NCBI RefSeq assembly: GCF_964204865.1
Contig: NC_135260.1
Coordinates: 15,770,478-15,834,477 of the forward strand
Length of the DNA stretch: 64,000 bases
Direction of reading: 5' to 3'
Origin: Styela clava
Lineage: Eukaryota
Part shown: one piece after another, positions 3,901-57,007 of the stretch
Position numbering within the stretch: the stretch's first letter is position 1
Layout: each line of letters starts with the position of its first letter
Notes under the pieces: model-generated
Seen by the model: the letters and a program-made list of their open reading frames with translations, nothing else
Database searches by the model: none
Told to the model about the DNA's origin: nothing
Translations under genes and position numbers: made by a program

Positions 3901-5446
3901 TAACTATTTTGTACTACAAATTACCTGCAGCAATATACGGTGAATAATGGCATAGTCAGTACAGCACTGCACGTTTAGGGGCTAACTGCTGTGTTGTCCC
4001 ATCTGCTGTCGTTTCGTTTAATCGTCCAAACCGAAAGACCAATTACTATCTTGTAATGTCAGTTTATAGGATCATTAGGCCATCATAAATAAAAGGCGTT
4101 TTATCGCAATAGGGCGCCACGTTATGATTACAGTGAATTTTTTTCAGAGTGATACTATTATAAGGTAATCCAGCAGTGTATATCTGCAGCGATACTGAAA
4201 TGATTTGAACTATGCCTCGTTAAGTGCAATTCGGTTAAAACCCAATCCAACTTAATAACCATGCTAATATTAAAACTTATTGTTCAACTTGTTGTTTATC
4301 ATAGAGTGCCTATATATGCCTAATTTGTCGAAATCGTAGTTCTGGCCTTTTTTATAAATTTGATGAGGGTTTTCGCCACAAATGGTAGTTCGCACTAACT
4401 ACCATACTATATAAAGTAATTAGGCCAATTTCTTAAATGTAACTGTAGCTCATCGTGATTTGCACGCTCTGGTAGGAAACAGTTGATAACCATGCAGCCA
4501 TCAATGTTCCCAACTAGTTCAAACTAGAATCGCCCCAAATTTTCAATAATGATATTATCAGAGTGATAATAGAAAATTTCCAAAAACGATACTGTATAAA
4601 TTATATTCAACCAAGTGTAAACTCTTTTTTGGTCCATATCCCCTTGGTAAAAGTCCTCAAAAGTTATCATACCATCCATGTTCATAACTATTCGAATTTA
4701 GAGACATGGAAATATGTGTCATATTTTCCCTATTGTTAGTGCGGGTCACCTCATGTTATGCCTAATCATGTGTATTAAGAAGAGCTTAAATATGAACTCT
4801 CCTATATAATCTCTACCGCTTGTTAGTTAGATTTTTCATACAGCACTCAAAACTCTAGAATTTTTAATTTTTCAATTAGATATTAGCAGAGTTGTCCATG
4901 GAAATGGGATGGGACAGCACACATTTGTATTTCCAATGGGGCACGAAAACCGTATGATTTTAGGGAAAATGATGGTAAAACATTTCGTTATGGATTTCGT
5001 GTCCATATATTTGAGCATAGCTCTCTTGTTAGGTATAAAGAGCGAAATATATTCAGCACTAACAATATATTTCGTGAAGGGGCTGATGGACACATGTATA
5101 ATAGTTATGAATATAAAGTTAACAAAGTCCGTAAATATTGTTGTTTCGCATGTCTCTTCTTACATGTAGTCCTTTTTCTTTGACGCTTAACCTAAATTTA
5201 ACAATATTTATTGATTTTTATTCCAATGGGAATCCCATGGGATGGGATGTGACAAGGATAATTGTTATGGGATGGGAAGGAGACAAAAAAATATGTCCCA
5301 TGGACAGGCCTGCTTATGTCTATATTTATTAGCATGTGTCGCATAGTCATATATTGTTATTTATTTTGTTGAATGCAATTTGAAACTGATTCGTTTTTTC
5401 CAATCGTGTAAATTACTTGTATATCTATCAATAAAGAATATTTGTA

Positions 5447-6736: not shown

Positions 6737-7660
6737 CCAGTGGCGATACTGTAACAAAGTGGTTCTCAAACTTCTTCGTATTGTGACGCCCTCCGAAAAA
6801 ATATGTTCAAGTTGCGACTCCCCGTGAAACCCGTCTTAATACCTTTCAACAAAAGACCTTTTTTGCAATGAGTTTCATTTAAACGAACAAACAAAACTAA
6901 ACCAAGGTCGGGGAAATTGCATTCAATGGGATGGGAATACTTGCGTCTTTTTACAATTGTCACTGAACTTTGGTGAGAATTGTGAGAGCCGCACGCATTT
7001 CCCTCTCAACATTTACTCGAGATCGATATTTTGTGTGTATTACGACCATGGTCGAATAACCTGCTTTACATGGATACGAAGTCGCAAAAGGGATCAAAGT
7101 GCGCAACGCTTTTTTTACCAAGGAAGGATAATCACTATTGAGGGAAATCCAAAAACTCATTTTCAGAATTAAAATTTCTTTTTACGTCGATTTCGTTCAA
7201 AAAAGAGAGATCGATATTTTGTGTGTATTACGACCATGGTCGAATAACCTGCTTTACATGGATACGAAGTCGCAAAAGGGATCAAAGTGCGCAACGCTTT
7301 TTTTACCAAGGAAGGATAATCACTATTGAGGGAAATCCAAAAACTCATTTTCAGAATTAAAATTTCTTTTTACGTCGATTTCGTTCAAAAATGGCAAAAA
7401 AAAATCAGCAATGTATTGTTGAAGCAAGATTTTAGCCAGTTATCTAATAAGCCCAAACGGCATTTAGTAACATTGCATCCCCAGTTGCGACAAAAGTCGC
7501 GGAGTTTTTCTACTTGAACGATCCAAAGTCAATTTAGCCTACGTCATACTTGCGTTTTTTGACTTTTCTTGTTCAGTATCATTTTCACAAAGCAAAAGAG
7601 ATTCCGCAGAAAAAAAATTTGCGATGCCCACTTTGAGAACCACTGCTGTATCGTATCAAT
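6737..7660. mobile_element. Degenerate element bounded by inverted repeats containing GTGGTTCTCAAA, with an internal tandem duplication.
   Basis: 6738 ccagtggcgatactgtaacaaagtggttctcaaac, versus the reverse complement of 7625–7660, attgatacgatacagcagtggttctcaaagtgg. Related to the CAGTGGTTCT family. Confidence 0.45.
7019..7391 (+). repeat. Tandem duplication, 2 × about 188 bp (7019–7206 and 7207–7391).
   Basis: The two copies are near-identical. Track ORFs 7138..7329 and 7326..7517 share an identical N-terminus (MREIQKLIFRIKISFYVDFVQK) because of the duplication. Confidence 0.85.
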
Positions 7661-8374: not shown

Positions 8375-8660
8375 AGAGTTATTACATCAAACGGAATCAA
8401 CATTGTTAATAGTCTCGTGCATCACGGAGTGAGATGGCAGCCTATATAGTCGGAAGAGTAAAGAGCAAGTATGCAATCTTATAAATCTTTAAATTCATTT
8501 GAATTGGCTTCCATCACCATCAAGTCCATGCTTCCGAAAACAAATAACTAACTAATCCCACACTCGACATGGAATGGCAACCTGACGAGAGGCCGTAGTT
8601 CGCCATATGGTTAAGCCGTCTTATCGGCTTTCCTCTCCTCGGGATAAATATGTAAATCCT
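8375..8660 (+). mobile_element. Composite SINE-like repeat. The 3' 155 bp matches the SINE tail at 13352–13510 at about 80% identity. The 5' part matches a different repeat seen at 3361–3500.
   Basis: Direct alignment of the segments. This suggests SINE subfamilies that share a tail but carry different heads. Confidence 0.5.
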
Positions 8661-10386
8661 ATCCTTTCCACCACCTCACGGAACTAAAATCCACTCCATT
8701 TTCGATTTCTTTCAGAGTGGCCAAAATAAAATTGATTGATTCTCCATTATCGTATATTGCCCATTCTCGTCTCTGAAAATGCTTTTCATCCAGAATACAA
8801 CACAGAATAAACAACGCTCTCGGGCTATGCGGATCAAAGTACATGAGCAAAACGCATGGTAGGTTCTGTACGAAAACAATCAGTCGATTGTGAAATCACA
8901 CCACGACCCTGCTGTACCGGTAAAGGAACACGTGCACACAGCGAGGATGCCAAATCAATAGTACCAGTACCGGTAAGGAGATTTGTTTCGACTGTATAAT
9001 CAGCATAACGACGATACACAAATTCGGTAACAAAATGGAATGTTGAAGAGATGATTAAAAACGACCGAAATCAAACTAAATTTATATAATTTATAGATAT
9101 GTTCAAAATCGGAAGTGGACAGGCTGCGAGTGACCAAAAAAAACTGCAACTACTTTACTTTAATTAAACTCGTGCACCTGAAAACTGGTAACGCAAATGC
9201 CAATGGTCCGTGTTGAGTTGTGATGTTGTAACGGATCGAATAAGTCAACTGTTATAGAGGATAGAATGATACCGAAGAGTGAACGGATTGATGTTAGAGA
9301 GAGATTTATTGCCACTAAACAAACTCAACACTATTATAAACATAATACAATAACGAAAATATTTCAGCAGTAATGACAGTGATTGATTATTGCTTTGTGC
9401 GGGTCGGTGTGCAAGACCGATTAAAGTCATCTAGGCTCTCGACCCTTGTTTATATGCTGTATATAAGACTATCATGGCATAAAATAGTACAATAGGTGGA
9501 TGCAAACGAGAATAAACATAAAATATAAATAAGATAAAGAGATGAGTCGACAATTTAATGGTATTATGGAAGTTAATATTAATAAGGGCAATTTAGGATT
9601 TTGAGAGATCATGTATATATTGGTTGAACTCGGACATGTCCAATGGAAAGATTTTCGCAAAAAGCATTTTTTTTTATTGGGCAATGACCGGGTTAAAAAT
9701 GAAATATTAGGGACGAGAAATAATATCATCACAGATTCAGCATTACAGCGAGCGCATGAAGTAAAAGTATCATTTCCCACCTCAATTAGTTCACGAGAAG
9801 AATATAGGGAAATTTTTTTTAATAAGCACTGAATATTGTATAGTTGCTATCAACATTCATAAGTATCTATACATATTTGAAAAAGAACTGAAATATTATT
9901 ATATGATTCACAATTAAATACACAGTTCACTTGTTACATAGTGGGTTTTACAATATAAAGAGAACATTACTTGAAATAGACTGGAATATTAATGTATGAT
10001 TCACAAGTATGATCCATGAGTAAGATAGGTTATCAGTTATTTTGAAATGTATTAAAAAACTATAAATTGTCACAAATTTGGCCGCAAACACAACGTTTCA
10101 TCATTTCTGATCATTCAAATTAAATGACTTCATAGCGATACATCGACATGACGCTGTATAATGCATGCGCAACAATAGTGCAATACACTCTGGATTAGGG
10201 AAAGAGGCACTGTGAGTTTTCGACCGAAGCCTCACTAGGTTTGTCATATTCTGCATATGATTGAAAACTACATGTACTAGAATATTTTATATATATATGT
10301 ATATTTTTGGAATTTTTACTAACATCAGTTGTGCAAGAATTCTAACACTTATAAATTTTTAGCAGACGGGCCTTCTATAACGAAAA

Positions 10387-10497
10387 GTGGACCTCCTGAA
10401 GTATGCGCACCACGATGTCGCACAGCCTGAACATTGTATATGTACCAGGTTAGGATTAAGGTGTGCGACATCTTGGTGCGCATACTTCAGGAGCACC
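10387..10497. mobile_element. MITE family A, copy 1 (short form, about 110 bp).
   Basis: Inverted ends GTGGACCTCCTGAAGTATGCGCACCA…GGTGCGCATACTTCAGGAGCACC. A-rich flanks, gaaaag and aaaaag. Confidence 0.6.
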
Positions 10498-11098
10498 AAA
10501 AAAGTCAACTTGAATCAGTCACATCTGAGGAATCGCCTATATCAGGGGTGGCCGACCGCGTTCGACTAAAATCTTAAAAATAGATCGCGATCGACTGATC
10601 GTTAATAGGGTTCTACACAAAAACGAATGGGCACTGAATGTGCAGATAACTGTACACACGCATACAAAAAATTAGCAAAATCGACACTAAATTTGTATTT
10701 TTCATGTTCCATTCAAGTTGTTGATTTGGATATTTAATTGTACCCGGAGTAAACGTTTCATTATTTATTTAAGATTAATTGAAATCATACAATTCAGATA
10801 AAGGACCTGTCTAATTTTCAGTCGTAAGTGTTGAAAATTCTTCAAGAAACCTTGCCAAGTATTATCCAAACAGCGAAAAATAAATATTCTCAAACCATGA
10901 ATGTTACATGACTGCTCAAACTTTAGTATCTAATTTACAATTTTCTCCAAGCGCGATTCTTCGCTTGCTTACAATTAGAACAAACTGGGCATTTTGATGC
11001 CACTGCTACCATTGCGAATAAAATGTATCACACTACTCTTGGAGTGAGACAATAATTTCGTATAGCTTGAAGTTATTGTAGGATTGTTCGTCAGTCTA

Positions 11099-12945
11099 GA
11101 CCAGTGGTTCTTAAACTTTTTGAGCCGCGCCCCCCTTTGAAAATATTTACAAACTTCGCGCCTCCCCTATTTTTGCTTTGAAAAAATGCTTTTGTGATGG
11201 GCAGGTTGCTATTTAATAAGATGGCGCTATAAGAGTGTTGGTCTCATATCGTCATTGCTCAGATTGTTTAGGCATAAAACGCTTCGGAGTACAACTTTGC
11301 CATTCACTGTCGTATGTATAAAGCCAAATAATGGTTGGTCATCATACATTCTCGTTTTTCCCCTCAGTTTGTAATACCTGGTAAAGTAAAACTAATTTTT
11401 AAGTAAAACTAAACACGCAATGAACCTATGCTTTAATGTATTTTCTGCTTAAACGTTTACATAAGAACGTAAAATTTCAATCAATTGTTTACTTCATCAC
11501 TATTGAGCGATGCCAAAATTATTTACTGTGTGTTAAAAATAAGCACCAATTACTTGTTGGCTTGCCTAACGTTTCAAACAAAATGAAGAAGTACAAATGA
11601 GTTTATGTAAATTTAAAAGCAGTTCATTTTTTAATAGTTTTTATGAATGTGGACGTTTCCTCGGCCCTTGACCACTGAAAAATTGAGTCGCTAAGGCGTT
11701 TGCGATTGCATTTTGTTTAAATCTCGATTGTTTTCGTAAGCGTGGCCCGCTATGCCGTAAAAATCTTGATTTTGGTGATTTTTTTCCCTAAATCAGAAAT
11801 TTCCCTCGACATATTCTTGTGTCGCGAAGACGATTATAATTACTTTTTTTATTTTCGAATAGAACCATGACATCTCTGAGGAAAACGAGTTAGTTTTTAT
11901 TATATAATCATCAGCGACGAGATGCTAAAGATAGAATAAAGTAGTGAATCTGCAACCAAATATTTCTTTATTGTAAAAGCGAGATTATAAAATACTAAAA
12001 ATAAAACAGAAAACACCATGAGTTTTGTTTTGGGGTGGACCGCGACAGATTAAAAACACTTTCTTAGACATTGCAAATCTCATGAATTCCTTGTGCCTGC
12101 GGCACACCAGTAGTGTTCTAAAACTACAGACTTGAAATAAATTTTACTCCGTGGGATTTTATCGTAGACTAAGGAATTAATCGAGCATTGCGATAAAGCG
12201 GAGTAAGAGTTGCAGGGACAGCTCATAATGGTGAAATTGGCAAGAATACAAATCAAAACAAAATGTAATCGGGCACTTTGCCACACGTTTTTATGGTTGC
12301 GGATTACCGTGGTATTTTGGAGTAGTGGTGCTTTTATTTTATCGACGCAATCGCAGATTTAATTTATCACAATCAAATGAATAAAGCAACCATTTTAAAT
12401 GAATATTTTATTCAACACGAAAACCATTACATATCCGTTGACAAAGTGGGCTCTTATAAGGACTGGCGTAATGTCGAGGACAGACTCAGGATTCGTACCG
12501 CGGGGATTTCGAGTCGATGAATATGTATTTTAATTGTACTAAATTAAGTATACTTTCTGGGATATTATATCAGATTTTTCTAATGAAGTCAACGAATTCG
12601 CATCAGTGCAATATATATCAAATCGAAATATAATCGGGCAGTTATCACACTTTGATATGTCCGTGGATTGGCGTGGTATTTTAGATCGGTAATGAATTTA
12701 TTTTGACATGAGTCGCCGCAACCGCAAGTTACCTTACACAAATGAATTAAAATAGAGAGACATTTTGAATTTTTTTCAGTTATTACGAGACGGAAAAAAT
12801 TATTATACCATGAAAAAGCCGGTATTTTTAATGAACGCGGAGACCGTTTCAGGAGCCGTTACATCTAAATTTCCGATTCCATCTTGTGACCTCTTGCGCC
12901 CCCCCTGTGAGCATCTCGCGCCCCCCAGTTTAAGAACCACTGGTT
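11099..12945. mobile_element. Tc1/mariner-like TA-flanked element of about 1.85 kb, nested inside the hAT-like element.
   Basis: Inverted repeats GACCAGTGGTTCTTAAACTT… and …CAGTTTAAGAACCACTGGTT, with TA immediately outside both ends (11097–98 and 12946–47). Subterminal GCGCCCCCC runs are present. Confidence 0.6.
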
Positions 12946-13184
12946 TAAACAAAACTCGGTTAACAGGAAGGCACCTTTTCAATTCGTAATATTAACCGAA
13001 GAAGCGCTTTTTTGAGTATCTACTCTGTTTGAAAAGAATTTGAGCAGAAACTAGGGCACCTAACTTGCTGAAATCGGCAAAAGCACTTTCGCACTTTTTT
13101 AGAGTTAGAGTTAACACTGATGTGGGTATTTTACGAACTTTAAATAAAAATTTCACCTGTAGTTTTGATACCTGTAGTTGTGGC

Positions 13185-13510
13185 AGTGTGGCTCATGTTG
13201 CTAAGCGTTAGGAATATGCTTGCCACCGCACCTCTGATAACTCTGCATGGATTCGAAGGTTCGGATCCCATGAAGGGATAGTTATGTGTGAGAGGATTGC
13301 TAGATCTTTGCCGCCATAGGGTGGTACACGTAACCGGTGGTCGGTTACGACTTCCTCCACCATCAAGTCCATGCTTCTGAAAAAACAAATAACTTATCCC
13401 ATACCCGACATGGAATGGTATCCGGACGGGAGACCGTGGGTTCCGATAAGGTTATTAAGCTTCCTTATCGGCTTTCCTCTCCTCCGAGATAAAATGTCAA
13501 TCCTATCATA
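13185..13510 (+). mobile_element. tRNA-derived SINE.
   Basis: The head has a tRNA-like box A, gtggctcatgttgctaagcg, and box B, ggttcggatccc. The tail, ccatcaagtccatgcttctg…tatcggctttcctctcctc…aatcctatc, is shared with 8505–8660. Confidence 0.6.
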
Positions 13511-16464
13511 ATATGACCTAACGGTCAAAAATATCCTTACTAATGTATAATCAATACTTTGTAGAACCTAAGAACATACCCAAGTATATTGTCTTCGCCA
13601 GGTTTGTTTTTATTTGAAGGTGGAATAACTGGAATAAAAAAAAGAATGCTAATATATGCAAATTCAGGTTGGTAATAAAAGAGTTAATTCGTAAAGTTAG
13701 CAGATTTTATTTTAAACATAAGGCAATTTAATTTTTAGCCAAGTAGAATATAAAATCTAAAACTGGTTACAATATTTCTAGCATACTAAGAAGTGGAGAA
13801 AGTAGTAAGACACTAATATATCATCAAATCCAATGCAGCGGCAATTTCAAAACCCAGGGTATAGGAAATTGTGTAGGCAAGCAGTGAAGAGAATTTTTTT
13901 TTTTTTAAATAGTACCACCTTATCAGTGGATGCTTGTCTGGGGCCCTGTTCAGAGCAAAAAGAGTAAACACAGAATGAAAAAAATAATACACGATTTTGT
14001 AAGCATAGAGGGCTGATTTTAAACGTGCTTGCACAATACTTGTGAGTTGTTCCACTAGCAAAGTATTTTGCCTTGCTATCGAAAATACTTACTTTTTGAA
14101 TTAACCTGAGTTTTTTTGAAAAAGCTGGAGGATGGTGTAAGAGGAGTGAATCGATCTCTTTTCTTCACACAATACGAGTCGGAAGATCTTCTGGAATCTT
14201 CCGACTCGCTATGGAGGATGTCAACATCTGAATGAAATGCATAAATATTAGCATCAAATAATTGATATACATTCAAATTTTGGTACTGAATTGGGTGCAG
14301 GTGTCAAAGTCAAAAGTTTGAATCTTCCAAGAGTCTGGAGTTGCAATTCAAAACTCATATTTTTGATGAAAGAATCTCAAATAGCTTTACGTTGAACGAG
14401 CATTCTCAATAGTCAAATAAAAAGGCTTGTATATGCCAGAGTTTGTGTTTTTATAGACTGGAGTCAAAATATAGACTGCAGTCATTCAAATTCAAATTTT
14501 GATTAATAGGAGGTGAAAGTAGAGTCAATTTTCTCGTCCGACTAACTAACCTCTTAATCGTTTTAATTCCTCCAGCTTTTGTATTAATATTGATCTTGGT
14601 GACGGATACCTGTGGAGCAAAAGATAACAAGCAGAATGAAATACAAATCAATGTAAAATGGTAAAAAAGGGTGATTACTGCAAAGTAGTTTTAATTATCA
14701 TTAGATAATAACAAGGACCATATAATTTTCACCACCTAAGCGTTAAATATTTCTGCTTTCCTGAAACCTGCAATGTGTGTTCCTAAATTTTTAATCTGAA
14801 TACTTTTTCAATCATAAATTTTCCTTTAAACTCGAATAATCGAATTGAATAAATTTCTGTGCCAACATAAGCAAAATATTAAATGTTCCTTCCTCTCGGT
14901 ACCCATGAGTCACGTATTGTAAACATTTTTACAAACCATATTAGTTACGAATTTTTATGTAATAATGAAACATCTATCTTTTTTGGTGAATCAATAAAAT
15001 ATGCGAAATTGAACCATATTTGGGTTTTCGCTTGACATCGGTTTTGGTAAATTATTTAAAAATGATTTGATCCTGAAAGTTAAATATTCACATGTGGATC
15101 AGTGTTCACTATTAGCACACTTTTTTGCGAAAAGTGGGAAGCACTTTCGCAACTTTTTTTATTGCGAAATAGCGCTTTTTTTGCGATTGCGAAATAGCAC
15201 TTTTTTCCGATTTTAAAGGGCAAAAATTCAAAGTTGACAATTATTTTCGTGTGAGTGCAAATAAGTTGCGTACTAGTACTTTTGTAACCCAATTTTGCAT
15301 TACATAATGATATTTGCTGGAATTCTAATCTATGTGGTACATACATTTGAGATAAAGCTTTTGCATTAACGGAAAAATTCTTGTTTATAATATGATTATT
15401 ATACAAGCACACCGATTTCGCTTCTCCCACAAAAACAGCTGGTGCCCTCTTTGAAACCAGATGTCCGAATACAACGCAGTGCCTTTCTTCAAACGAGAGT
15501 GGTCATGTGACTGTCGATGACATCGATGAATTGCGACCAAAGTACTCGATTTTCTAGTGCAAATTTGACGGGATTCGGTCCTTCCGTAGTGAATTTATTT
15601 ATTGGAGCCATTCAGAAAGTTCTGATACCCAATACGGCATTGTTTTTTGTAACGAATGTAAACTTAGGCCAATATTTTTTGAATTAAGAAGAAACTTTTA
15701 GCAGCATCTCACAGATTTGCGAAATCACCAAATAGCACGTGCACATGCCATTTTGCGATATTTAATATTATCTATTCATTCTCGATAAATCGAACTTAGA
15801 CCAGAGTCAAAAATTAAATGCAACTATTTCTCACTGATATGCCAGGTTATGATATTATTGCCAAGAATATTTGTGAGTATATCACTGGACAGAAATATTT
15901 TGCACCCCTGCTGTTTGCAGAACAACAATTCGCTAAAGTTGATGATTCGAATACACGGGAAGCATTTATTTATCATCTCACTGGCCAACATGTGGCAGAA
16001 TTGTACGATCATGTTGTCCTCTCTAAATAATAACTTTTTTATTGAATGTTTATATTTTACATCTGTGTATTAATTATATGTTCTTGTTGGGTTTTCATTA
16101 CATTCATTCAACGTCGGTTTACAGACATCTAATGTATAACTCTCGCAACCAAATATTTTTTGTTTTGTATGCAACCACCTGGATGGTGCACCAAAAAACG
16201 AATTTGATTTTATTGAAATTGGAACACACAAATACAGAATTTTACATTTCATACACAACTAACAGATGCCACATGCAGGCGCTCAGCCAAGATTTTTCCA
16301 ACGGGGGTCTTATGGTAAAATTAAATACCGGTAAGTGCTTTAATCGTACAATTTACAACGACTTAAGACGTCTGTTAAATAAATTCCAGCAGAGTTTCGT
16401 GTAGCTCGCCTCCCTCTGTAGTCGTTTGGTGAATATTTGGTATGTGTATTTCAAGAATATACCC

Positions 16465-16755
16465 GCTTAATCTTTCTATTGCCATTCTATGAGTATTTAC
16501 CTACACATGATTAGAGACGGGCAAAATCGGATTTTTTCTAATGGAGAAATCATTTTAAGAGAAAAGTAAAACTCGCGAGCATCAATGGTGTTACAATTGT
16601 TTATATGCATAAAAACATTGATTGAATGTGCATGAAATGTGTGAAACTATTACTCGTGGTAATTCAATGTTAATCTCTTTATTGCCATTCTATGAGTATT
16701 TACCTACATGTGATTAGAGACGGACAAAATCAGATTTTTTCTAATGGAATAATTT
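16465..16755 (+). repeat. Two direct copies (16465–16555 and 16668–16755) of a repeat of about 90 bp, tctttctattgccattctatgagtatttacctaca.gtgattagagacgg.caaaatc.gattttttctaatgga.
   Basis: Direct sequence identity between the copies. Located inside the hAT-like element. Confidence 0.7.
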
Positions 16756-19700
16756 GAATATTTTTTTTTTAATAGAAACTTACTAAAGACTGAAAACTCT
16801 GTAACAAGGCGGAGTTTTAACTGTCTAATTTTGTCACAATCGCGGATTCTTTTTTGTCATCGTGACCGTTTCAGTGGCCGACATCTTAATTATTGTTGCA
16901 CTATATTTTAAAGCACTTTTATCCCAATAATTCTCACGCAGCGGCAGACATTGAATTTTTTTTAAATTTCAAGCCGAACTATGAGTTCACATCAGCGAGA
17001 ATATTAAAGACACTATTAAGTAGTGAATTCATAAACATTTTATTTTTATTTCAATCTCATCATCTGGTTCGATAACAGTTTGTAAATTACGGTCCGAGTT
17101 TTTAGCGAACAATAATATCATTACTGACCCTGTGATGAAAATATTTATAAAGCTAACAATAGCTGACTTTTTATGATTTTAATTTCTAGCGTTTGTGTGG
17201 TATTTTCCTATTAAATCATGAATAATGAATAAAACACTTTGCAAAATCGCCATTTCATGAATACTCAGTGTTGCTTTGAATCAAATATACTGATTAAATA
17301 AATCGGCAATGATAGCAATTCTACATGGTCAAAATAATATTCCCGCCTGAACTCTCTGGAAATTTCCATAGAATACATTATTCACCTGTCTTACTTTATC
17401 TGGTTTGACGTTTCTAAACGTAAAAACGGCTTTGAAGCGCTTGAATTGAACTGATATGCTAGGCGCAGAAAAAAAATCACCACAACTGAAAGATTTCTCA
17501 TATTTATCGTTTCCGTCTGTTAGCGACAGTCGTAGGTGAATTCTTCCTCGTAACTCTTACTTCGAAATTAATGTTAATAAATTTGATCTTGCTTTTTAAT
17601 GCGTCATAATTTGAATTAATGAAAATGATTGTGTAGGGAGTTTGAAGAAAAGGTCTTAAATTAGCTTATAACAGACCTTTTATATGACTATTATTGAATT
17701 ATAAAGTAGGTCAACCTATGGCTCAAAATAGCGGGATGCCGACTTTCATAGCGAATTCGTGTGATCTTTCAAAAAATGAAATAGGATGAATAAACATGAC
17801 ATCAATCCATATCGGTGACCGGGGATGTTATTTAGCACATGCTTTGTACAAATGACCACCTCTCTGACTATGGCCGGTTAAACTAATATCGATTGCTGTG
17901 TGTATTAATCGCTGTCTGTTGGATGGAAGGAGTAACGAAAATTTGCGAGGCATTGCTGTTCAGGGAAAGGAGTACCGTTCGCAACTGACACGGTTGGTTG
18001 ATTGCACAAAGTTTTGTTCACGACATGTGAGCTTAGCAGGTGTCCTTTGTTACCGATGAATTCGCTTGTTTTAAACAAAGGTTTACTCTAGACTTAGTCA
18101 AGAATAGAGTAGACCCTGGCCTAGAGTCTGGACACGCGATAATCGGCACATCATTTTAGTAGACATTGGCAGCGGAAAACTTGCATTTGTTACGTGATAA
18201 TATGCTTTATCGGGCTTGCCCAAACTCAAATACAGTATGTGGTATGTTGTATTTTGCGCATGTAAAGTACTGTATTCTCCCTGTTGCAAAATACACAACT
18301 GGTTCGAGACAATTTTGGGGGGCATTTCAATAAATTTCATATCAGACGCGATCGACTGCTGAGACGTGGCGATCGGCCGATCGATCGCGATCGACGTGTT
18401 GGCCACCCCTGGCCTATACAATACAAAAGATGATCATCACAAAACTAATTGCAAACACCAAACAGTCTTATTTTATCCATGTAATTAGTGTATGGTTGAT
18501 GCAATCATTTCAAAGAAAATGATACCACTGATAGTTTGAAACAATCGGGAAATGATTTCATTAAACGTGCTTTGGCAAACATTACAGAATATCAACGCGT
18601 TCGGCTAACATTCTCATTGAAAACGCGTCATTCAAATATTTTTTACCTATAATATTAGTGAAAATAGTTTGGTTGTTTCAATAGGTGTGATTAAACAATG
18701 TGCTTCATGACCACCCATACTCGGAGATCATTGATTCTCCTACAAAGTTAAAAAAAAAAATAGGTATTTTCATATTTGAAAGCAGTGAAAAAGACTTATG
18801 TTTAGAATATATTCCAAACTGAAAACAACTTTATCTGAAAAATCACAATATTCTGTATATATTATTTTTGCTCCAATCACATTTGAAATAGCGCAAATAT
18901 TAGGATCATTGGTTTTTACATTTTTGCATGCATTTGATGAACACATGCTTTGCTCTGCTTGGTTGATGCCAAATTTAGGTCCTAAAATCGACAATTTGCA
19001 AATTCAGATATTTCGAAAGTTTACTGAAAGCAAGAATTTACTATATCAAATAAAACGAACTTCCAGCTTATTTGAATATTCAATTGGTTTTGGATATCAT
19101 AATTTCTAGCTTTCATTTTCATCAAGTTCTTATAAGCTTACTCGACAGAAGCAGTATGCTCATTAGTGAGTGATTCCAAATTAGGGCGTGGTATATATTT
19201 TGGGATCACTGGGCAGAAGTAATGTTCGAGTGAAATTGTGGAGAACAGGTTTACTTGTCAAATAATGGTGGAAATTTCTGCCAAGCCAGGGTAAATATGC
19301 TTTAGTTTGTTTATGTACAGTCGAAAGCGGCCCAATGTGGATCTCGTGCTTAGAAAATGTCGTTGTTTGGACGATTACAGAATAGATATAAGTGTTTTTG
19401 ATTGATCTCAGAAAAGACACAATAACCTATACGGGAGAAATGTTCACAAAAGTTATAGTTTATACAAACAGAAATAAATTACACGCCACAAAAGAGTTGG
19501 TAGTCCATAGTCGAAACGAGAGAGCCTTCAACTGGCCCACAGAAATGAAAGAGAAGCTCACCCTTTACCTGGCATGGGCAAACTACGGCCCGCGGGCCAA
19601 ATCTGGCCCGCGCCATGCTGCCACAACCAAAGTAAAACCAAATTTTGATGTTTCAGCTAAAAAATAGCTTAAGGAATTTGATGAGATTGCGATTAAATTT

Positions 19701-20523
19701 AGTTTCTAGTTTAGTTTCCACTTTTGCTGTTGTAACACTGTAAATATTGTTCACAACATGTAACTGTTTACGTCACACTCACATGTCCCGCCAGTTGAGG
19801 TGGGCAAAATCTTTGCCCCGTGGTTCAAAAACCTTGCCCACCCCTGCTTTTTACCGTAGCCCTGTTGGGATCAGTTGTTCACCGCCGTTTTGGCATTTAT
19901 GCTTCCAAACTTCCTTCGTACTGCTCGTTATTTCGTCCTGTTTTTCGTGTATGTTTGTACTCAGTGCTCCGCATATGGATACCAAAAAGGATACAACGTG
20001 AAGGGCTGTCGGCCCTATTTTCTGCGGCTATGTAAGCATATCGTTTTCGGTGCAAACCAAAATTACTGAGTCGCATTCAATATTACTCCGTGTTGTTATT
20101 GTTGGGAACATATCCAGTTCTGGTGTCCTTATTAAGTAACTGTTCGGTCTCGTAAACGCCATAGTTTCCATAGTGAAAAAAAATGTTGTTATTTAGGAGC
20201 ATAGGTATCAGTTTGTCCAACCCAGTGTTGTAGTATTTGTCATTTGAGTGTTTTTAGTCTAAATTTTATTTGTGGATAGCTATGCGTCTGATGGATTTTT
20301 TTCAATCCCACACAAGGACATTTTATCCACTAATCAGAGATGTAATGTTTAAACAGTTGATTATCACAGGAGATATCAGAGCATCGAATATATATTTTTA
20401 AATGGAAGCAGAAAAAATAAATCAATCGTGCAGAAAACGGAGAATTACAGTTTATCTCAATTTTTGTTACTTCAGAGACATTCGGGTTATAATTGATTTC
20501 AAATATAAAACAATAAATAAAAG

Positions 20524-20621: not shown

Positions 20622-20913
20622 CTGTCAAAAATAAAAAGCCCCTAAAGTTCTATGCACAAAATTGAAAGATCGAGTTTAAACATTTAAAAACTCCTGGGTT
20701 CAAACGAATGATTTCAATTCGTTCAAAAATTCAGATAATTTGAATTAATCTAAACTAAAGGGCACGAAATTTCAAAAAGATAAATAAAGCTATATAGTAT
20801 TTACACCGCCAGTCCGAGGTCACCTTGGGAAAAGTTCATCACAATTTGTTATCATGGTGATGTATCATCAGCGGAATTGACATATATATTTGAAAAGGGG
20901 TTCTTATACTCAC

Positions 20914-21077
20914 CAGTGGTGTCGTAGGGAGGCGCAACTTCCACCATATCAGCACCAATTATATTCAGTCCACGACAACCTCGAATTATTTCTAGTGCCT
21001 GAGAAGTAGTTAATCCACCAATTTCAGGAAATCCAGTTCCCGGAGCAGCGCTGGGATCCAATGCGTCTATATCGAAA
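20914..21077 (-). CDS. AGMAT: Agmatinase exon 7: (C)[54 protein letters not shown] + 1 nt.
   Basis: Acceptor tttatttcgcag|T. Donor ACTG|GTGAGT. Roughly 80% identical to human [53 protein letters not shown]. Confidence 0.88.
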
Positions 21078-21419
21078 CTGCGAAATAAATTGAAATTATT
21101 GATGCTACACCTCACCGTTTATTTCGTGTCCCATGGTGCTATGTATTCAATGGAATTTAATTAATTAGAAAATAATAATTCGACAATCTTGCAGTATCTT
21201 ATTTATGAATTAAAAAAAACTTTTTATTATTTGTGTTTTATCAGTCTTGAACCTACCTTATTTATTTAAGCTATGATTACGTAACGAATAAATATATTTA
21301 AACGTATATATAATATATTTTGAGAGCGGTGCATTTTGAATTTCTGTAGAATCACAATATTAGATCCAATTCAATTTACAATATTTTATATATAAATTAA
21401 AAATAATATAATCCTCTAC

Positions 21420-21520
21420 CAAATATAAGTTGGTGTTTCTCCTATTACGTCTCTTACTTCTTTCATCAGCGGCGTCAACGATTTATACCACAAGTCCTTG
21501 GCATGGATCATTCTAAAGCC
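21420..21520 (-). CDS. AGMAT: Agmatinase exon 6: GFRMIHAKDLWYKSLTPLMKEVRDVIGETPTYI + 2 nt.
   Basis: Acceptor ttatttctcag|GGC. Donor TTTG|GTAGAG. Matches human GFRVVLAEDCWMKSLVPLMGEVRQQMGGKPIYI. Confidence 0.85.
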
Positions 21521-21646
21521 CTGAGAAATAAATAAACAATAGCTTTTGTTATTGGAACCTTGTAAGGCATATAAGTACTCCACTCTTTTTTGCACAATCA
21601 TAACAATATGTACTATGAAATTTATTTATAATCAATAGGATTATTT

Positions 21647-21884
21647 GGCGCTCCCGTAGTATGTGAACCAAGATGGCGGAAACCGCATCCTATAGTATAT
21701 GTACCAGGTTAGAGTTAGGTCCTAATTTTATTCCAATTTTCCTTATTTTAGTTCTATCACGTGTTCGGAGACTAGCTAAGCGACTCCCTTAATATTTGTA
21801 CCTGAAATTATGGACTGACCCTAACCTGGTACAAATACTACGTTCCGGTGTCAGCCATCTTGGTTCACATACTACGGGAGTACC
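21647..21884. mobile_element. MITE family A, copy 2 (long form, 238 bp), 5' of agmatinase exon 5.
   Basis: Inverted ends GGCGCTCCCGTAGTATGTGAACCAAGATGGCGG…CCATCTTGGTTCACATACTACGGGAGTACC. 8-bp TSD GATTATTT (21639–21646) and GAATATTT (21885–21892). Confidence 0.7.
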
Positions 21885-21983
21885 GAATATTTACTTAAAC
21901 AAAGAGTGCTTGTTAAAAATATACACACACGATAAAATTTTATTATCTTCTAGCAACCTTACAATTATAATCCAACTTAATAC

Positions 21984-22179
21984 CTTATCTAGCTGCCAAT
22001 CAAACGAGTCTAAACTTCCCACACTGCCTCGAAGTCCTATTTGGAAAACTTTTGTTGGTATTATCAAGTTTTCTTCTATTGCTAAACGAAATGCAGTCCC
22101 GTGAGTGATTTTTTCGCCATTAGCAAAACTATTGCAGTCCGAATGAGCGTCCACATGCACCATAGCTACTGGGCCATAT
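21984..22179 (-). CDS. AGMAT: Agmatinase exon 5: YGPVAMVHVDAHSDCNSFANGEKITHGTAFRLAIEENLIIPTKVFQIGLRGSVGSLDSFDWQLDK.
   Basis: Acceptor tttaatttag|A. Donor AAG|GTATTA. The HVDAHxD metal-binding motif is present. Collinear with human HGPVGLLHVDAHTDTTDKALGEKLYHGAPFRR...VVQIGIRGSS. Confidence 0.85.
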
Positions 22180-22663
22180 CTAAATTAAAAATAAAGTCAC
22201 TAGAAAAAGCTTGTTTCGACCAATATCTCAGTCAAAACTACGAAACTTGATATTGCAAGATTTTTTCCAGGTAGGAATTTTAAGGCTATTTAAGAGGAAG
22301 TATTTATTGGACAAGAAGTTTTGTTATTATGTTGTTGTTGTTAGTATTATTCTTGTAGTTGTTGTTGTTGAAAAAATTGCTTCGCTTTTCAACTACTGCC
22401 CTTTTTGCTTTGAAATTTTCAGTATTTAACATTCTTGTTGTCGCTAGAAGGCTATTAGGTTACTATTATTATGTCTATCACGCGGGGGGAATAAATTTTC
22501 CCAGAACCTCTTTCGATATACCATTCCTTACCATACCTACTATTCTTTTAAAAATGTACAGTATGGACTCCGGTTGAGAAACACTTGTATGTATGTAAAG
22601 CTATAAATAAATAAACCAATACTTCATAATACAATTTCAATATATATTAAATGTTATACTCAC

Positions 22664-22712
22664 TTTTCTGCCATGGCCTGTAAAATTGGATACGATATAG
22701 TGTGATCTCCAC
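22664..22712 (-). CDS. AGMAT: Agmatinase exon 4 (49 nt): GDHTISYPILQAMAE(K), containing the GGDH Mn-site motif.
   Basis: Acceptor acacacag|GT. Donor GAAAA|GTGAGT. Matches human GGDHTITYPILQAMAKK. Confidence 0.82.
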
Positions 22713-22829
22713 CTGTGTGTGTTTATAAAAAATATATTTAAATCAATACCCTATTATCAAAAAATTATTCGTTACAAAATTTAAACTACAACAGTCATAT
22801 TTTCAAAATACAAAATAGAACATTTTTAC

Positions 22830-22944
22830 CTATGGACAATGGACGACAACCATTTTTTATTATTTCCTCATATTGTTTTTTGATATCATCACAACATTTC
22901 TTCAAATTGTAAAGATTCACTCGGACATCACCGATATCAGCAAC
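22830..22944 (-). CDS. AGMAT: Agmatinase exon 3: VADIGDVRVNLYNLKKCCDDIKKQYEEIIKNGCRPLSI + 1 nt.
   Basis: Acceptor cacgaacag|GTT. A second in-frame acceptor at 22980 would add 12 codons. Donor ATAG|GTAAAA. Matches human VADLGDVNVNLYNLQDSCRRIQEAYEKIVAAGCIPLTL. Confidence 0.78.
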
Positions 22945-23131
22945 CTGTTCGTGAGTTATACTATTAGAAATGATCTGTACCTGAAAAAGTTTTTACGTTT
23001 CTACAGTCTTCCAGAATCTAATTTTCCCATCAAACAAACGGCAAATAGAATTCCGTTGGATGCCCAGATTTGATGGGTTTTTGATTAAATTCCAAAGAAG
23101 TAAAATAAAGCAATCTTTTACTACTAAATAC

Positions 23132-23219
23132 CTGAATTGACGAAAATGGATCAGCGCCGGCTTGTATATTGCACTTGCGAACAATAACCGATTCTGATCT
23201 GATTTGCCTCGGACCAAAT
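23132..23219 (-). CDS. AGMAT: Agmatinase exon 2: (R)FGPRQIRSESVIVRKCNIQAGADPFSSIQ.
   Basis: Acceptor ccgttctccag|A. Donor CAG|GTATTT. Matches human RFGPRRIREESVMLGTVNPSTGALPFQSLM. Phase is consistent with exon 1. Confidence 0.8.
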
Positions 23220-24067
23220 CTGGAGAACGGTGTTTGTTGGATGAATATTTGCAAGAGAAAAATTATTTTTAAAACACTCTCGTTGTACTCATCATTTACG
23301 TAAAAGTCAGTGATCAATTACGCACATTGGTATATTCACGCAACCCTAACGATTTAAAATAGTTGATATTCATACATGATATAGCTAATATAATGAAGGT
23401 GCGAAGACAAGTGCAAAGATGTATTTTAAATTCACAGCAAAATATTGCACAAATGGAAATGCATGGACGATGCTTAGTTAATAGAAAAATAGCTTAGTTA
23501 TTAGGAAAATATACAAACTATTCCGGTTATGTGTTCAAAATGCTTTTAATTTGCAATATCAACAAAGGCCGAAGGTGAGTAGAGATATTTAGTATGAGCA
23601 ATTTATAAGCCAGTTTTGGTTTGACCTATTTAGATAAATCAACAGGTATCTAATGGTAGTAACAAAATATGGTGGACTAATAATTCAATCATTGGATGAC
23701 ATTTGAGATAGTATTTATATCGGTGTCGATTTTTTCCTGTTAAGGCGTGACCCATACATATACACTCATACCCATACAATATTGGTATTCACCGGACGCA
23801 ATAAGCCACAGCGCACGAACATTCACGATTATGGATTCATTATTCCGCGTATTTGTTTGCAGTTATTAACACCAATGGCACTTACGCAAGCTTGCTCAAA
23901 ATAATTTTAAAACCTCTCAAAAAAATAGAGAAGAATTATGTTAGAACAACCACAAAATAGAACTGATGCACTCAGAGTATATAATGGTTATGCTTAAACA
24001 AACGTGCGTATTGATGACATTCCAGTCGAGTATATCGGAACAATTTTCAACAACAATGTACACTCGC

Positions 24068-24165
24068 CTTGCTCCAGATCTATTCGAAGTCCCGTGATCA
24101 ATTGGAACTCCTACGAAACAAGCATCGAGGCCATCCGTGTTACGTGCAATTGGTAGCCTCAGCAT
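24068..24165 (-). CDS. AGMAT: Agmatinase-like ureohydrolase, exon 1. ATG at 24165; encodes MLRLPIARNTDGLDACFVGVPIDHGTSNRSGA + 2 nt.
   Basis: Collinear with human AGMAT MMRLPVQTSPEGLDAAFIGVPLDTGTSNRPGAR. The exon ends AG|GCGAGT, a GC donor; joined to exon 2 it restores the GARFGPR motif. An in-frame stop lies 18 nt upstream of the ATG. Confidence 0.75.
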
Positions 24166-25502
24166 AGTTGCAATACCTGTTTACAGAAGAACGTTGTACC
24201 AATATTTGCATAAAATTTAAAGAAATCGCTTAAAATTACCTGCAGGGAACGCCAATTCGCTAGCACTTGTTGGTTCATTAAACTTCTTCTCCACTTTATT
24301 TTCACACAGAAGAATTTTTGATTTTGGGACGTGTTCAGGAGCTATAACAAATTCAATGTGTTATATTCTTGGTAATGTAAAATAATTTAAAAATATTTCA
24401 TTCCGCCATGAACTAGAACTCGGCAAATATTAACAAAATTCCATTTCCACTGACAAATTCAAAATATCTCCATTACAAATGTGCTATGATAAAGCTATAA
24501 GTTTTCTCACCGGTGTGGTGATGACACTTTCTTGTAGAATTGTGTGACATGTTCTTTGTACTTTGAAATGTAATATGGAATAAGAACTATGCTAAGAAAG
24601 CTAATCTTACTGTAATCAAAAAGTTCCAAAAAACACGTTTGAGACTATCTTATGAAAAATCTAGGTGTAGTGTGAAAAGCCTGCCGATAAATTTCTGAAT
24701 TGTTTAATGAATACATTTTTTTAACTTTTCCATTCTCTTTGAACAATTTGCTTATTACCTACCTAGTGCTATATTCCACCTAAACTGACACTAGAGTCTT
24801 CAATTTGCCATACGATGAAGCCGATATCAGATTTATTTTGCATTTGTTCAAATATTACTATTTTCTGCCCTTATTATTTTACAGAATATCACGCTGCATC
24901 CGCATACTTTTGCACCTGTGTACAATTGCATCCACGGGCATTTGCGCTAAGAGAAGTTTGCACTCTCATAAATTTGTACCAGTGTTGTATGAATGTCCGT
25001 GCGTGCGAAGGCTGGTGCGAATACCATGAATCAGAGCACAATAAAGCAAATGCTACGCCATTATTATGTCAGTGTAATAAGTAATTCATCGAATCTATAA
25101 GCGCAAATGAAGCTCCGCGAAAACTTCTCCACCTTGTTCAATTTTCAGCTGACCAAATTGATGAATTTTTATTCTGGTGAATGACAAAATCAGTGACTGA
25201 ATACGAAATCACATGGTATGTCAATATTAAACTTACACGCTACCATTCCTCCCAACTATAAATTACATTTTGAGGCTTTCGATTGGCTGTTTCAGTTCGA
25301 AGTGAGTGTTGGTAATGTTTGTTAGTAAATAGAATTACATTGATAATATTTTCGATACTACGGTACTGGAACAAAAGTCAATTATCTAACTAACATATAT
25401 CCTCGTGTAACGAGCCTAGATGGTCTTACTTCGAATCTCCGAAAAATCAAGATAACTGAAAACAAATTTTTGTTTGTCGACTACACTGAATTATAACTGA
25501 AT

Positions 25503-26112: not shown

Positions 26113-26175
26113 TTAAACCCATGTACATTTGAACCCACGACAATTGCACCTGCATACTATTGCACATATGGAATT
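26113..26175. repeat. Dispersed 60-bp repeat, catttgaacccacgac(a/g)attgca(c/t)ctgcatactattgca, that carries the minisatellite unit. A second copy is at 48313–48375; related inverted fragments are at 61520–61590 and 61900–62000.
   Basis: The two copies align at about 90% identity. The unit therefore belongs to a dispersed repeat family. Confidence 0.6.
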
Positions 26176-39208: not shown

Positions 39209-39291
39209 CTGGAAGAAACAAAACTTTGTGATAGTCATATCCGTGAATTTAACGCAAAAGTTTTTTTGCAACATTTGCCACGAATTTCGAA

Positions 39292-43250: not shown

Positions 43251-43260
43251 ATATATATAC

Positions 43261-56992: not shown

Positions 56993-57007
56993 AAAAAAAA
57001 TACTCAC

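What the first reader, a model, noticed from the sequence alone, without database searches (positions are those of the whole stretch)
10535..18419. hAT-like element of 7.9 kb with an 8-bp TSD (GCCTATAT/GCCTATAC) and no recognisable transposase, carrying nested Tc1-like and SINE insertions
CAGGGGTGGCC… inverted ends about 7.87 kb apart are flanked by a 7/8-matching 8-bp direct repeat, the hallmark of a single hAT-superfamily insertion. CAGGG is the canonical Ac-type hAT terminus. Both ends also carry subterminal GATCGCGATCGA motifs. I could not find a convincing transposase reading frame inside. The interior is occupied by the TA-flanked element at 11099–12945, the tRNA-SINE at 13185–13510, and several local direct repeats. 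The element is therefore probably an old, non-autonomous carrier.
Basis: partly seen in the sequence, partly recalled or inferred. Interest (0 to 1): 0.55.

Follow-up and report, generated by a model that had tools for sequence, protein, structure and literature searches.

The report
Dead hAT transposon copy in Styela
This is one old, non-coding copy of a cut-and-paste (hAT-type) transposon in the sea squirt Styela clava; its two ends match a roughly 260-bp miniature transposon family that is abundant in another sea squirt, so it is ordinary genome 'junk', not a new kind of element.

Summary
CAGGGGTGGCC occurs exactly twice in the window (10543 +, 18411 -), inverted, 7,869 bp apart. The flanks are GCCTATAT/GCCTATAC (7/8). 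No such CAG-starting configuration arose in 200 simulated windows.

The window is Styela clava (MVP ORF 100% identical to the NCBI protein).

A scan of JGI metagenome contigs with the terminus pattern hit at least 120 contigs, all from an unidentified ascidian. They carry a hAT-type MITE family of about 259 bp with asymmetric L and R ends. It has five same-strand GATCGAC subterminal motifs and mostly perfect 8-bp TSDs. The target consensus is nTnTAnAn (TA at positions 4-5 in 93/100), the Buster-type hAT signature.

A profile of that family matches the window only at 10543-10626 (L end) and 18321-18411 (R end), collinear, with the same motif spacing. So the two ends belong to one insertion.

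No Pfam domain occurs in any frame of the interior.

Long copies in the other ascidian are MITEs carrying nested insertions. The same is likely here but unproven.

- The target site is Buster-like, not Ac-like.
- The nested "Tc1-like" element fits hAT better.
- The SINE's tRNA origin is unconfirmed.

This is an ordinary, low-interest finding.

The parts
10535..10542 (.). Left target-site duplication, GCCTATAT
   Evidence: It agrees at 7/8 with 18412-18419. TA at positions 4-5 and A at position 7 fit the family's target consensus.
10543..18411 (+). Whole element, 7,869 bp, written with the L end on the left
10543..10556 (+). Left terminal inverted repeat, CAGGGGTGGCCGAC
   Evidence: It matches the right TIR at 11/11 and then 13/14. 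The family TIR is CAGGGGTGGCCAAC.
10543..10626 (+). L-type subterminal region with two same-strand GATCGAC-type motifs (GTTCGAC at 10560, GATCGAC at 10589)
   Evidence: nhmmer with the MITE profile aligns positions 1-92 here, E 9e-5. With the TIR masked the window-wide E is 0.028. Identity to the consensus is 66%.
11094..11101 (.). Left flank of the nested element, GTCTAGAC (putative 8-bp TSD)
   Evidence: It agrees at 6/8 with 12943-12950 and has TA at positions 4-5.
11102..12942 (.). Nested non-coding TIR element, 1,841 bp, with a perfect 16-bp TIR CAGTGGTTCTTAAACT and GCGCCCCCC subterminal motifs
   Evidence: pair I3; 22-bp tandem repeat at 12885-12926; no domain. A related terminus lies at 50130.
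12943..12950 (.). Right flank of the nested element, GTTTAAAC
13180..13510 (+). SINE-like repeat with a box-B-like GGTTCGGATCC; boundaries approximate
   Evidence: sequence. Its 3' half, 13351-13507, is 80% identical to 8508-8663. No tRNA was found by ARAGORN or Rfam.
15161..15212 (.). Local 25-bp tandem repeat, 2.1 copies
   Evidence: also D8.
16467..16753 (.). Local direct duplication: two 84-bp copies at 90% identity, 203 bp apart
   Evidence: (D1).
18321..18411 (+). R-type subterminal region with GATCGAC-type motifs at 18350, 18371 and 18389. These lie 62, 41 and 23 bp from the end; the family consensus has 63, 41 and 23.
   Evidence: nhmmer aligns profile positions 167-259 here, E 4e-18, and E 9e-12 with the TIR masked. 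Identity to the consensus is 85% over 80 bp.
18398..18411 (-). Right terminal inverted repeat; reads CAGGGGTGGCCAAC on the minus strand
18412..18419 (.). Right target-site duplication, GCCTATAC

Best explanation
Positions 10543-18411 are one insertion of a non-autonomous hAT-superfamily element. It belongs to, or is a close relative of, an ascidian MITE-forming family with the 14-bp TIR CAGGGGTGGCCAAC. The family has asymmetric L and R subterminal regions carrying same-strand GATCGAC motifs (two at L, three at R) and prefers the target nnnTAnnn, as Buster-type hATs do.

Inferred mechanism: a hAT transposase encoded elsewhere bound the TIRs and the GATCGAC arrays. It excised a short, probably few-hundred-bp, copy and integrated it across an 8-bp staggered cut at GCCTATAY, which produced the duplication. 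After insertion the copy was most likely inflated to 7.9 kb by later insertions into its middle. At least one other hAT-like TIR element and one SINE-like repeat inserted, plus about 5.5 kb of unclassified AT-rich non-coding DNA and small local duplications. It now encodes nothing and is an inert relic lying at least 2.4 kb downstream of an arginase-family gene.

Shown here: the TIRs, the TSD, the motif arrays, homology of both ends to the L and R ends of a transposing family, and the absence of any coding capacity. Inferred: the identity of the transposase, that GATCGAC is its binding site, and that the length is secondary.
For: TIR, TSD and chance control.

The family exists and transposes. 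At least 120 metagenome contigs carry the terminus. Complete copies of 206-460 bp each have one L and one R end. TSDs are perfect in 14/31 and show at most 1 mismatch in 22/31. Of 100 distinct flanks, 93 have TA at positions 4-5, against a 6% background.

The contigs are ascidian DNA: an intronless dymeclin is 71% identical to Phallusia and 66% to Ciona.

The family profile hits the window only at the two claimed ends, on the same strand, with model 1-92 on the left and 167-259 on the right. The R end survives TIR masking at E 9e-12. The GATCGAC motif spacing is conserved: 62/41/23 bp from the right end here versus 63/41/23 in the consensus, and 29 versus 30 bp between the two L motifs.

Two independent insertion flanks agree at 7/8 or better in at most 1.3% of pairs.

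There are no inner termini and no Pfam domain in six frames.

Precedent for secondary growth. L114 is a 456-bp variant split by a 6.97-kb TIR element with a perfect 8-bp TSD. L050 and L006 (852 bp) are also longer than the MITE: L050 is split by an insert of about 1 kb, and L006 is more complex and was not resolved.

Nested elements inside the window copy.

Literature. Buster-family MITEs such as Mar have 11-bp CAG(G/A)GGTAGGC TIRs and nnnTAnnn TSDs (PMC3517528). hAT elements are 2.5-5 kb with 10-25-bp TIRs and 8-bp TSDs, and copies enlarged by nested insertions are known (PMC3942097).
Against: No other S. clava copy could be examined, so the S. clava consensus, its usual length and its copy number are unknown.

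The left end is only 66% identical to the other ascidian's consensus. Without the TIR it is only marginally significant window-wide (E 0.028).

The 74-bp middle of the MITE is not detectable anywhere in the window.

Only about 2.2 kb of the 7.7-kb interior is accounted for by recognisable nested repeats. A TIR+TSD scan found no clean boundaries for further insertions. Growth after insertion is therefore argued by analogy and is not demonstrated.

No autonomous partner was found in the window or in 839 kb of related loci. Assignment to hAT, and to Buster in particular, rests on structure and target site only.
Confidence: 0.62

Rival explanations
1. The element transposed as a long (about 5-8 kb) non-autonomous hAT element. 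That would be an internally rearranged derivative of an autonomous copy, or a copy with filler or captured DNA between the ends. Only the two recognisable repeats were added afterwards.
For: It has the same TIR, TSD and end homology as the best explanation. About 5.5 kb of the interior shows no boundaries of nested elements. It also shows no similarity to the MITE middle. MITEs are generally thought to derive from longer parents by internal deletion (PMC3517528).
Against: There is no trace of a transposase or any other domain in six frames at E<=5, although the TSD (7/8) and TIR (11/11) are well preserved. Decay deep enough to erase a 600-aa ORF should also have eroded them. At 7.9 kb it exceeds the usual 2.5-5 kb of hAT elements (PMC3942097). 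Of the three long relatives seen, both that were dissected are MITEs with nested insertions, not long parents. The interior has no DNA or protein similarity to any related locus.
Confidence: 0.3
2. The two ends come from two independent, truncated copies of the family that happen to face each other. The 7.9 kb between them is ordinary host DNA.
For: The family can be very abundant, with at least 100 distinct insertion sites in the sample from the other ascidian. Its target preference raises the chance that flanks agree.
Against: Flanks of independent insertions agree at 7/8 or better in at most 1.3% of pairs. This reading also requires one L and one R end in exactly the right orientation, each truncated on its inner side, with no inner termini left. 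No other copy of the family exists in the 64-kb window.
Confidence: 0.04
3. The configuration is a chance inverted repeat with chance flanking similarity and is not a transposon.
For: Any 11-bp inverted pair with 7/8 flanks arises 0.56 times per random window.
Against: Zero of 200 simulations gave a CAG-starting pair. Both ends are homologous to a real transposon family over 80-90 bp. The motif spacing is conserved.
Confidence: 0.01

Closest known systems
Mar, a Buster-family hAT MITE of the Drosophila willistoni subgroup (PMC3517528)
   Same: Both are short non-coding hAT derivatives with an 11-bp-class TIR starting CAGGGGT (Mar: CAG(G/A)GGTAGGC; here CAGGGGTGGCC). Both have 8-bp TSDs with consensus nnnTAnnn, many copies with intact TSDs, and rare long copies.
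   Different: The host phylum and the internal sequence differ. For Mar a putative full-length transposase copy places it in Buster by phylogeny. Here no transposase is known, so the Buster assignment rests on the target site alone. The window copy is 7.9 kb, not miniature.
Buster-family hAT transposons (e.g. TcBuster, AeBuster; Arensburger et al. 2011, as cited in PMC3517528 and PMC3942097)
   Same: They share the 8-bp TSD with a central TA, short CAG-initiated TIRs and cut-and-paste mobilisation.
   Different: Those are autonomous 2.5-5-kb elements encoding a BED / RNase-H-like / hATC transposase. This copy has no coding capacity.
Ac/Ds of maize (non-autonomous hAT elements mobilised in trans) — comparison from general knowledge
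   Same: A non-autonomous element keeps the TIRs and subterminal repeated motifs that the transposase binds, makes an 8-bp TSD, and has heterogeneous interiors.
   Different: Ac-family targets follow a different consensus from the one seen here. The motifs, the hosts and the TIR sequences also differ.
BuT2 copies and BuT2 MITEs in Drosophila (PMC3942097)
   Same: The same family contains short MITE-like copies that keep only the outermost roughly 100 bp at each end. It also contains oversized copies whose extra length is due to nested insertions of other transposons.
   Different: BuT2 belongs to the Tip group of hAT and has a known five-exon transposase gene.

Membership tests
hAT superfamily (as a non-autonomous member) | 8-bp target-site duplication | tested here: met
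   The flanks are GCCTATAT/GCCTATAC, 7/8. Related copies have perfect 8-bp TSDs in 14/31 and at most 1 mismatch in 22/31.
hAT superfamily (as a non-autonomous member) | Short TIRs (10-25 bp), typically starting with CAG or TAG | tested here: met
   The TIR is 11 bp perfect and 13/14 overall, CAGGGGTGGCC(A/G)AC. The range is quoted from PMC3942097.
hAT superfamily (as a non-autonomous member) | Encodes a hAT transposase (BED zinc finger, RNase-H-like catalytic domain, hATC dimerisation domain) | tested here: not met
   No Pfam domain was found in six frames of 10300-18701. This is expected for a non-autonomous copy, so it is filed as 'hAT-like by structure' and not as an autonomous hAT.
hAT superfamily (as a non-autonomous member) | Shares its ends with an autonomous hAT element or is mobilised by one | not testable with these tools
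   No autonomous copy was found in the window or in the 120 related loci. The S. clava genome could not be searched.
Buster family of hAT | Target-site consensus 5'-nnnTAnnn-3' | tested here: met
   93 of 100 distinct flanks of the related family have TA at positions 4-5. The window TSD GCCTATAT does too. The criterion is taken from PMC3517528.
Buster family of hAT | Transposase groups with Buster transposases in a phylogeny | not testable with these tools
   No transposase is available.
The CAGGGGTGGCCAAC MITE family seen in the JGI ascidian contigs | One L-type and one R-type end in a fixed mutual orientation, with GATCGAC motifs at about 29 and 59 from the left end and 63, 41 and 23 from the right end | tested here: met
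   The profile hits 10543-10626 (model 1-92) and 18321-18411 (model 167-259) on the same strand. Window motifs lie at 18 and 47 from the left end and at 62, 41 and 23 from the right end. Identity is 85% at the R end and 66% at the L end, so this is a diverged relative or subfamily, not a close copy.
MITE (miniature element) | Small size (under about 800 bp) and high copy number | tested here: not met
   This copy is 7,869 bp. Copy number in S. clava is unknown, and only this one lies in the 64-kb window. The relatives in the other ascidian do meet the criterion.
Tc1/mariner (for the nested element at 11102-12942) | TA dinucleotide TSD directly abutting the TIR, and a DD(E/D) transposase | tested here: inconclusive
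   The TA lies 3 bp outside the perfect 16-bp TIR. The alternative, an 8-bp TSD GTCTAGAC/GTTTAAAC (6/8) with a central TA and a CAG terminus, fits hAT. Related termini at 50130 and 7986 have the same nnnTAnnn flanks. No transposase domain was found.
tRNA-derived SINE (for about 13180-13510) | A tRNA-related 5' head with A and B boxes, and dispersed copies | tested here: inconclusive
   A second, 5'-truncated copy lies at 8508-8663 at 80% identity. A box-B-like GGTTCGGATCC is visible. ARAGORN found no tRNA and Rfam found none at E<=1.

The most novel reading that the evidence does not exclude
The same hAT MITE lineage is present in two distantly related ascidians: Styela clava and an unidentified ascidian whose dymeclin is closest to the phlebobranchs Phallusia and Ciona. 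The right-end 80 bp are 85% identical and the binding-motif spacing is identical. That is more conserved than neutral DNA should be between such lineages, which would point to horizontal transfer of a Buster-type hAT between ascidian lineages or to an unusually long-lived active family.
Probability: 0.3. Interest if true: 0.35.

Novelty: new member of a known kind. Interest (0 to 1): 0.15.

Why it matters
Its importance is small. It adds one annotated example, with a usable consensus and target-site logo, of a Buster-type hAT MITE family in ascidians. DNA transposons make up about 24% of the S. clava genome (PMC7540406), yet I found no description of this family in the searched literature.

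It also shows that several JGI 'metagenome' data sets are largely ascidian host DNA.

The cross-species conservation of the ends could serve as a marker for transposon exchange among tunicates. The copy itself is an inert relic with no sign of coding or regulatory function.

Tried and rejected
- Six-frame Pfam-A scan of 10300-18701 for BED, hATC, DDE, RT and other domains: nothing but one sub-threshold DUF3599 hit.
- Rfam on the whole window at gathering threshold and on the SINE region at E<=1, plus ARAGORN: nothing.
- Fetching the S. clava chromosome around the MVP gene to reach paralogues or other haplotypes: the protein is in the database (P0001), but no gene position is on record. S. clava paralogues and empty sites therefore could not be examined.
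- Search for the MITE's middle segment, or the 450-bp variant's internal segment, inside the window: only the two ends match.
- blastn and tblastn of the element's interior against 839 kb of related ascidian loci: only the right terminus matches.
- Systematic scan of 10400-18550 for further nested elements (12-bp TIR with at most 2 mismatches plus a 5-9-bp TSD): only AT-rich or motif-internal chance pairs.
- Search for an autonomous partner among the 120 loci. No ORF of 200 aa or more looked like a transposase, but these ORFs were not scanned against Pfam. Apparent 'solo' R ends turned out to be ordinary MITEs with diverged L ends.
- Pairing the left end with the third CAGGGGTGG terminus at 19846: rejected, because its flank CTTTTTAC does not match and it belongs to a separate element of about 278 bp.
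- The terminus pattern in prokaryotic genomes and viral contigs: zero hits.
- Literature look-ups of the JGI and ENA sample identifiers: nothing.
- I ran no further search on concatenated interior ORFs, since the Pfam result made a useful answer unlikely.


Full report
**What is in the sequence**

The window reads ...GAATC GCCTATAT CAGGGGTGGCCGACCGCGTTCGAC... at 10535 onward and ...GATCGCGATCGACGTGTTGGCCACCCCTG GCCTATAC AATAC... up to 18419. CAGGGGTGGCC occurs exactly twice in 64 kb, once on each strand, 7,869 bp apart. No terminus-like sequence lies between the two, even allowing 3 mismatches in 14.

I simulated 200 first-order Markov windows. An 11-bp inverted pair within 20 kb with 8-bp flanks agreeing at 7/8 or better is not rare in itself, at 0.56 per window. 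None started with CAG, and the only other real cases are AT-only strings.

The subterminal motif is real. GATCGCGATCGA lies at 10583-10594 and 18381-18394. Six of the window's ten CGATCG sites are within 65 bp of the two ends.

**Whose genome it is**

An intronless 870-aa ORF at 30942-33554 (-) is 100% identical to the NCBI protein 'major vault protein-like [Styela clava]'. The S. clava genome paper reports 46% repeats, with DNA transposons as the largest class at 23.8% (PMC7540406). A DNA transposon relic here is therefore expected background.

Exons of an arginase-family gene lie at 20855-22184 (-). A PLP-dependent decarboxylase gene lies at 38978-44120 (-), and a pentaxin-domain ORF at 51646-52365 (-). 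The element lies at least 2.4 kb beyond the last recognisable arginase-family exon and looks intergenic.

**No coding capacity**

The longest ORF between 10300 and 18700 is 120 aa. All six frames, with stops replaced by X, gave no Pfam-A family at E<=5 except one sub-threshold DUF3599 hit. Pfam-A includes zf-BED, the hAT dimerisation domain, DDE transposases, reverse transcriptases and integrases.

**Relatives elsewhere**

I scanned the JGI metagenome contigs for CAGGGGTGGCCNACN{0,30}GATCGCGATCGA, a pattern that both window ends satisfy. The scan hit its limit at 120 contigs. The same pattern has no hit in 185,579 prokaryotic genomes or in IMG/VR.

The contigs are eukaryotic, with 40% GC and LINE-like ORFs. 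They share nothing else significant with the window except one weak 69%-identity repeat match (5124-5312 to L035), so they are not S. clava.

One contig carries an intronless dymeclin gene. It is 71% identical to Phallusia mammillata and 66% to Ciona intestinalis, the best named hits. The host is therefore an ascidian, but I could not name it. The samples are IMG 3300001463 and ENA ERZ27241785, and no paper cites them.

**The family**

Complete copies are about 259 bp, with variants from 206 to 460 bp. Every one has two different ends:
- an L end, CAGGGGTGGCCAACTTGTCTTCGACTGGGATCGAC...;
- an R end, which read inward is CAGGGGTGGCCAACACGTCGATCGCGATCGACCGG....

The consensus carries GATCGAC five times on the same strand, at 29 and 59 from the left end and at 63, 41 and 23 from the right end.

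Of 31 complete copies, 14 have perfect 8-bp TSDs and 22 have at most one mismatch. Over 100 distinct insertion flanks the target logo is T2 64%, T4 94%, A5 98% and A7 68%. TA sits at positions 4-5 in 93 of 100, against a 6% background.

An 8-bp TSD and a short CAG-initiated TIR define hAT structurally (PMC3942097). The nnnTAnnn target is the signature used to assign MITEs such as Mar (TIR CAG(G/A)GGTAGGC) to the Buster family rather than Ac (PMC3517528).

**How the window copy relates to the family**

An nhmmer profile of 25 copies hits the window significantly at only two places, both on the plus strand. Model positions 1-92 align to 10543-10626 (E 9e-5). Model positions 167-259 align to 18321-18411 (E 4e-18).

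With the 14-bp TIRs masked, the right end remains at E 9e-12. The left end drops to E 0.028 window-wide, but it is still the second-best hit in the window and sits exactly where it should.

The GATCGAC-type motifs in the window lie 62, 41 and 23 bp from the right end, against 63, 41 and 23 in the consensus. The two left motifs are 29 bp apart, against 30. Identity to the consensus is 85% over the last 80 bp and 66% at the left end. Copies in the other ascidian average 94%.

The window thus holds one L end and one R end of this lineage, in the orientation they have inside a single element, flanked by a TSD that fits the target logo. Flanks of independent insertions agree at 7/8 or better in at most 1.3% of pairs. 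I consider the 'two solo ends' alternative excluded for practical purposes.

**Why it is 7.9 kb**

The MITE's 74-bp middle, and the internal segment of the 450-bp variant, are not detectable in the window. The interior shares no DNA or protein similarity with the related loci.

In the other ascidian the long copies are clearly secondary. L114 (7,426 bp, TSD CTGTGTAA/CTGTATAA) is a 456-bp variant split by a 6.97-kb element with TIR CATGGGCGCAATTT and a perfect 8-bp TSD ATTGCACG. L050 (1,461 bp) is split by an element of about 1 kb. L006 (852 bp) is more complex and was not resolved.

In the window I can account for two inserts:
- A 1,841-bp non-coding element at 11102-12942 with a perfect 16-bp TIR.
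- A SINE-like repeat at about 13180-13510, whose 3' half recurs at 8508-8663 at 80% identity.

A scan for further TIR+TSD boundaries found nothing convincing, so about 5.5 kb remains unclassified.

A decayed autonomous element is unlikely. Erasing a 600-aa transposase beyond Pfam detection is hard to reconcile with an 11/11 TIR and a 7/8 TSD, and 7.9 kb exceeds the usual 2.5-5 kb.

My estimates are:
- about 0.6 that a short copy inserted and then grew;
- about 0.3 that a long non-autonomous form transposed as such;
- a few percent for everything else.

The nested element was called Tc1-like because of flanking TA. Its perfect TIR starts with CAG at 11102 and 12942. The eight bases outside are GTCTAGAC and GTTTAAAC, which agree at 6/8 and both have TA at positions 4-5.

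Other hAT-like termini in the window have the same kind of flank:
- 6757: CTGTAACA
- 7986: GTCTATAC
- 49887: CTTTAGAC
- 50130: GTATAGTA

In all, 8 of 9 such flanks in the window have TA at positions 4-5. A hAT reading is therefore more economical than Tc1, though the palindromic flanks keep it formally ambiguous.

The 'tRNA-SINE' has a box-B-like GGTTCGGATCC, but ARAGORN and Rfam find no tRNA.

'Ac-type' should be replaced by 'Buster-like target preference'.

**Mechanism**

Shown here:
- the TIRs, the TSD and the conserved arrays of GATCGAC;
- the many related copies with perfect TSDs at different sites, which means transposition rather than duplication.

Inferred from established hAT biology:
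- a transposase supplied in trans binds the subterminal repeats and TIRs, excises the element, and inserts it across an 8-bp stagger;
- this copy, lacking any gene and probably disrupted in its middle, is now inert.

**Novelty and verdict**

This is a structure-defined, non-autonomous hAT element of a MITE-forming lineage. I did not find the lineage described in the searched literature. It is a new member of a known kind.

The only mildly unusual point is that the ends are 85% conserved between S. clava and a distantly related ascidian. That could reflect horizontal transfer, but I could not test it. Interest is low.

Noticed in passing
window 10382-10503, 21639-21892, 39292-39390, 42224-42470, 54139-54390, 56879-56998: A palindromic, foldback-like MITE family has six copies in the window at 73-92% identity. 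One copy ends only 40 bp left of the hAT element's TSD. It is unrelated to the hAT family.
   Followed up: partly
window 19569-19846: This is a separate hAT-like MITE of about 278 bp. Its right end is CAGGGGTGGGCAAGGTTTTTGAACC. Its left end is degenerate, CTGGCATGGGCAAACTACGGCCCGCGGGCC. The flanks CCCTTTAC/CTTTTTAC agree at 6/8. The terminus resembles but is distinct from the CAGGGGTGGCC family.
   Followed up: partly
window 6757, 7986, 49887, 50130 (all + strand): Four more CAG-initiated hAT-like termini are present: AAGTGGTTCTCAAAC, CAGGGGTTCACAAAC, CAGGGGTCGCGACCCC and CAGTGGTTCTCTAAC. Each is preceded by an 8-mer with TA at positions 4-5. Several hAT-like families with a Buster-type target preference therefore populate this region.
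   Followed up: partly
window 30942-33554 (-): An intronless 870-aa major vault protein gene is 100% identical to the NCBI Styela clava protein. Its position is nevertheless not retrievable from the gene-position index.
   Followed up: partly
window 20855-24180 (-), 38978-44120 (-), 51646-52365 (-): There are exons of an arginase-family gene, a pyridoxal-dependent decarboxylase gene and a pentaxin / ConA-like lectin ORF. EGF-like and C-type-lectin-like fragments at 58758-59006 and 61059-61418 gave no Pfam hit.
   Followed up: partly
window 7019-7203 and 7207-7391: A perfect (100%) 185-bp tandem duplication is separated by 3 bp. It is either very recent or an assembly artefact.
   Followed up: no
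window 26094-26917 (also 48302-48375 and 61538-61594): A degenerate minisatellite array with multiple periods generates a spurious 170-aa ORF with repeated HLHPRTFAP units. Related short blocks occur elsewhere in the window.
   Followed up: no
L114 2292-9260 (locus coordinates, approximate): In the other ascidian, a 6.97-kb element with TIR CATGGGCGCAATTT and a perfect 8-bp TSD ATTGCACG is nested in a MITE copy. It has no ORF over 136 aa. It may be a large non-autonomous hAT-like element in its own right.
   Followed up: partly
L001-L120 (JGI Ga0210059, JGI24158J21664, JGI24159J19872, JGI24021J15306, JGI24022J15233; IMG 3300001463; ENA ERZ27241785): Contigs filed as metagenome are ascidian host DNA. 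They include an intronless dymeclin 71% identical to Phallusia, LINE-like ORFs and abundant MITEs. The host species was not identified.
   Followed up: partly
window 12885-12926 and 11125-11170: The nested element carries GCGCCCCCC motifs near both ends, in the same strand orientation rather than inverted. This includes a 22-bp tandem repeat at its right end.
   Followed up: no
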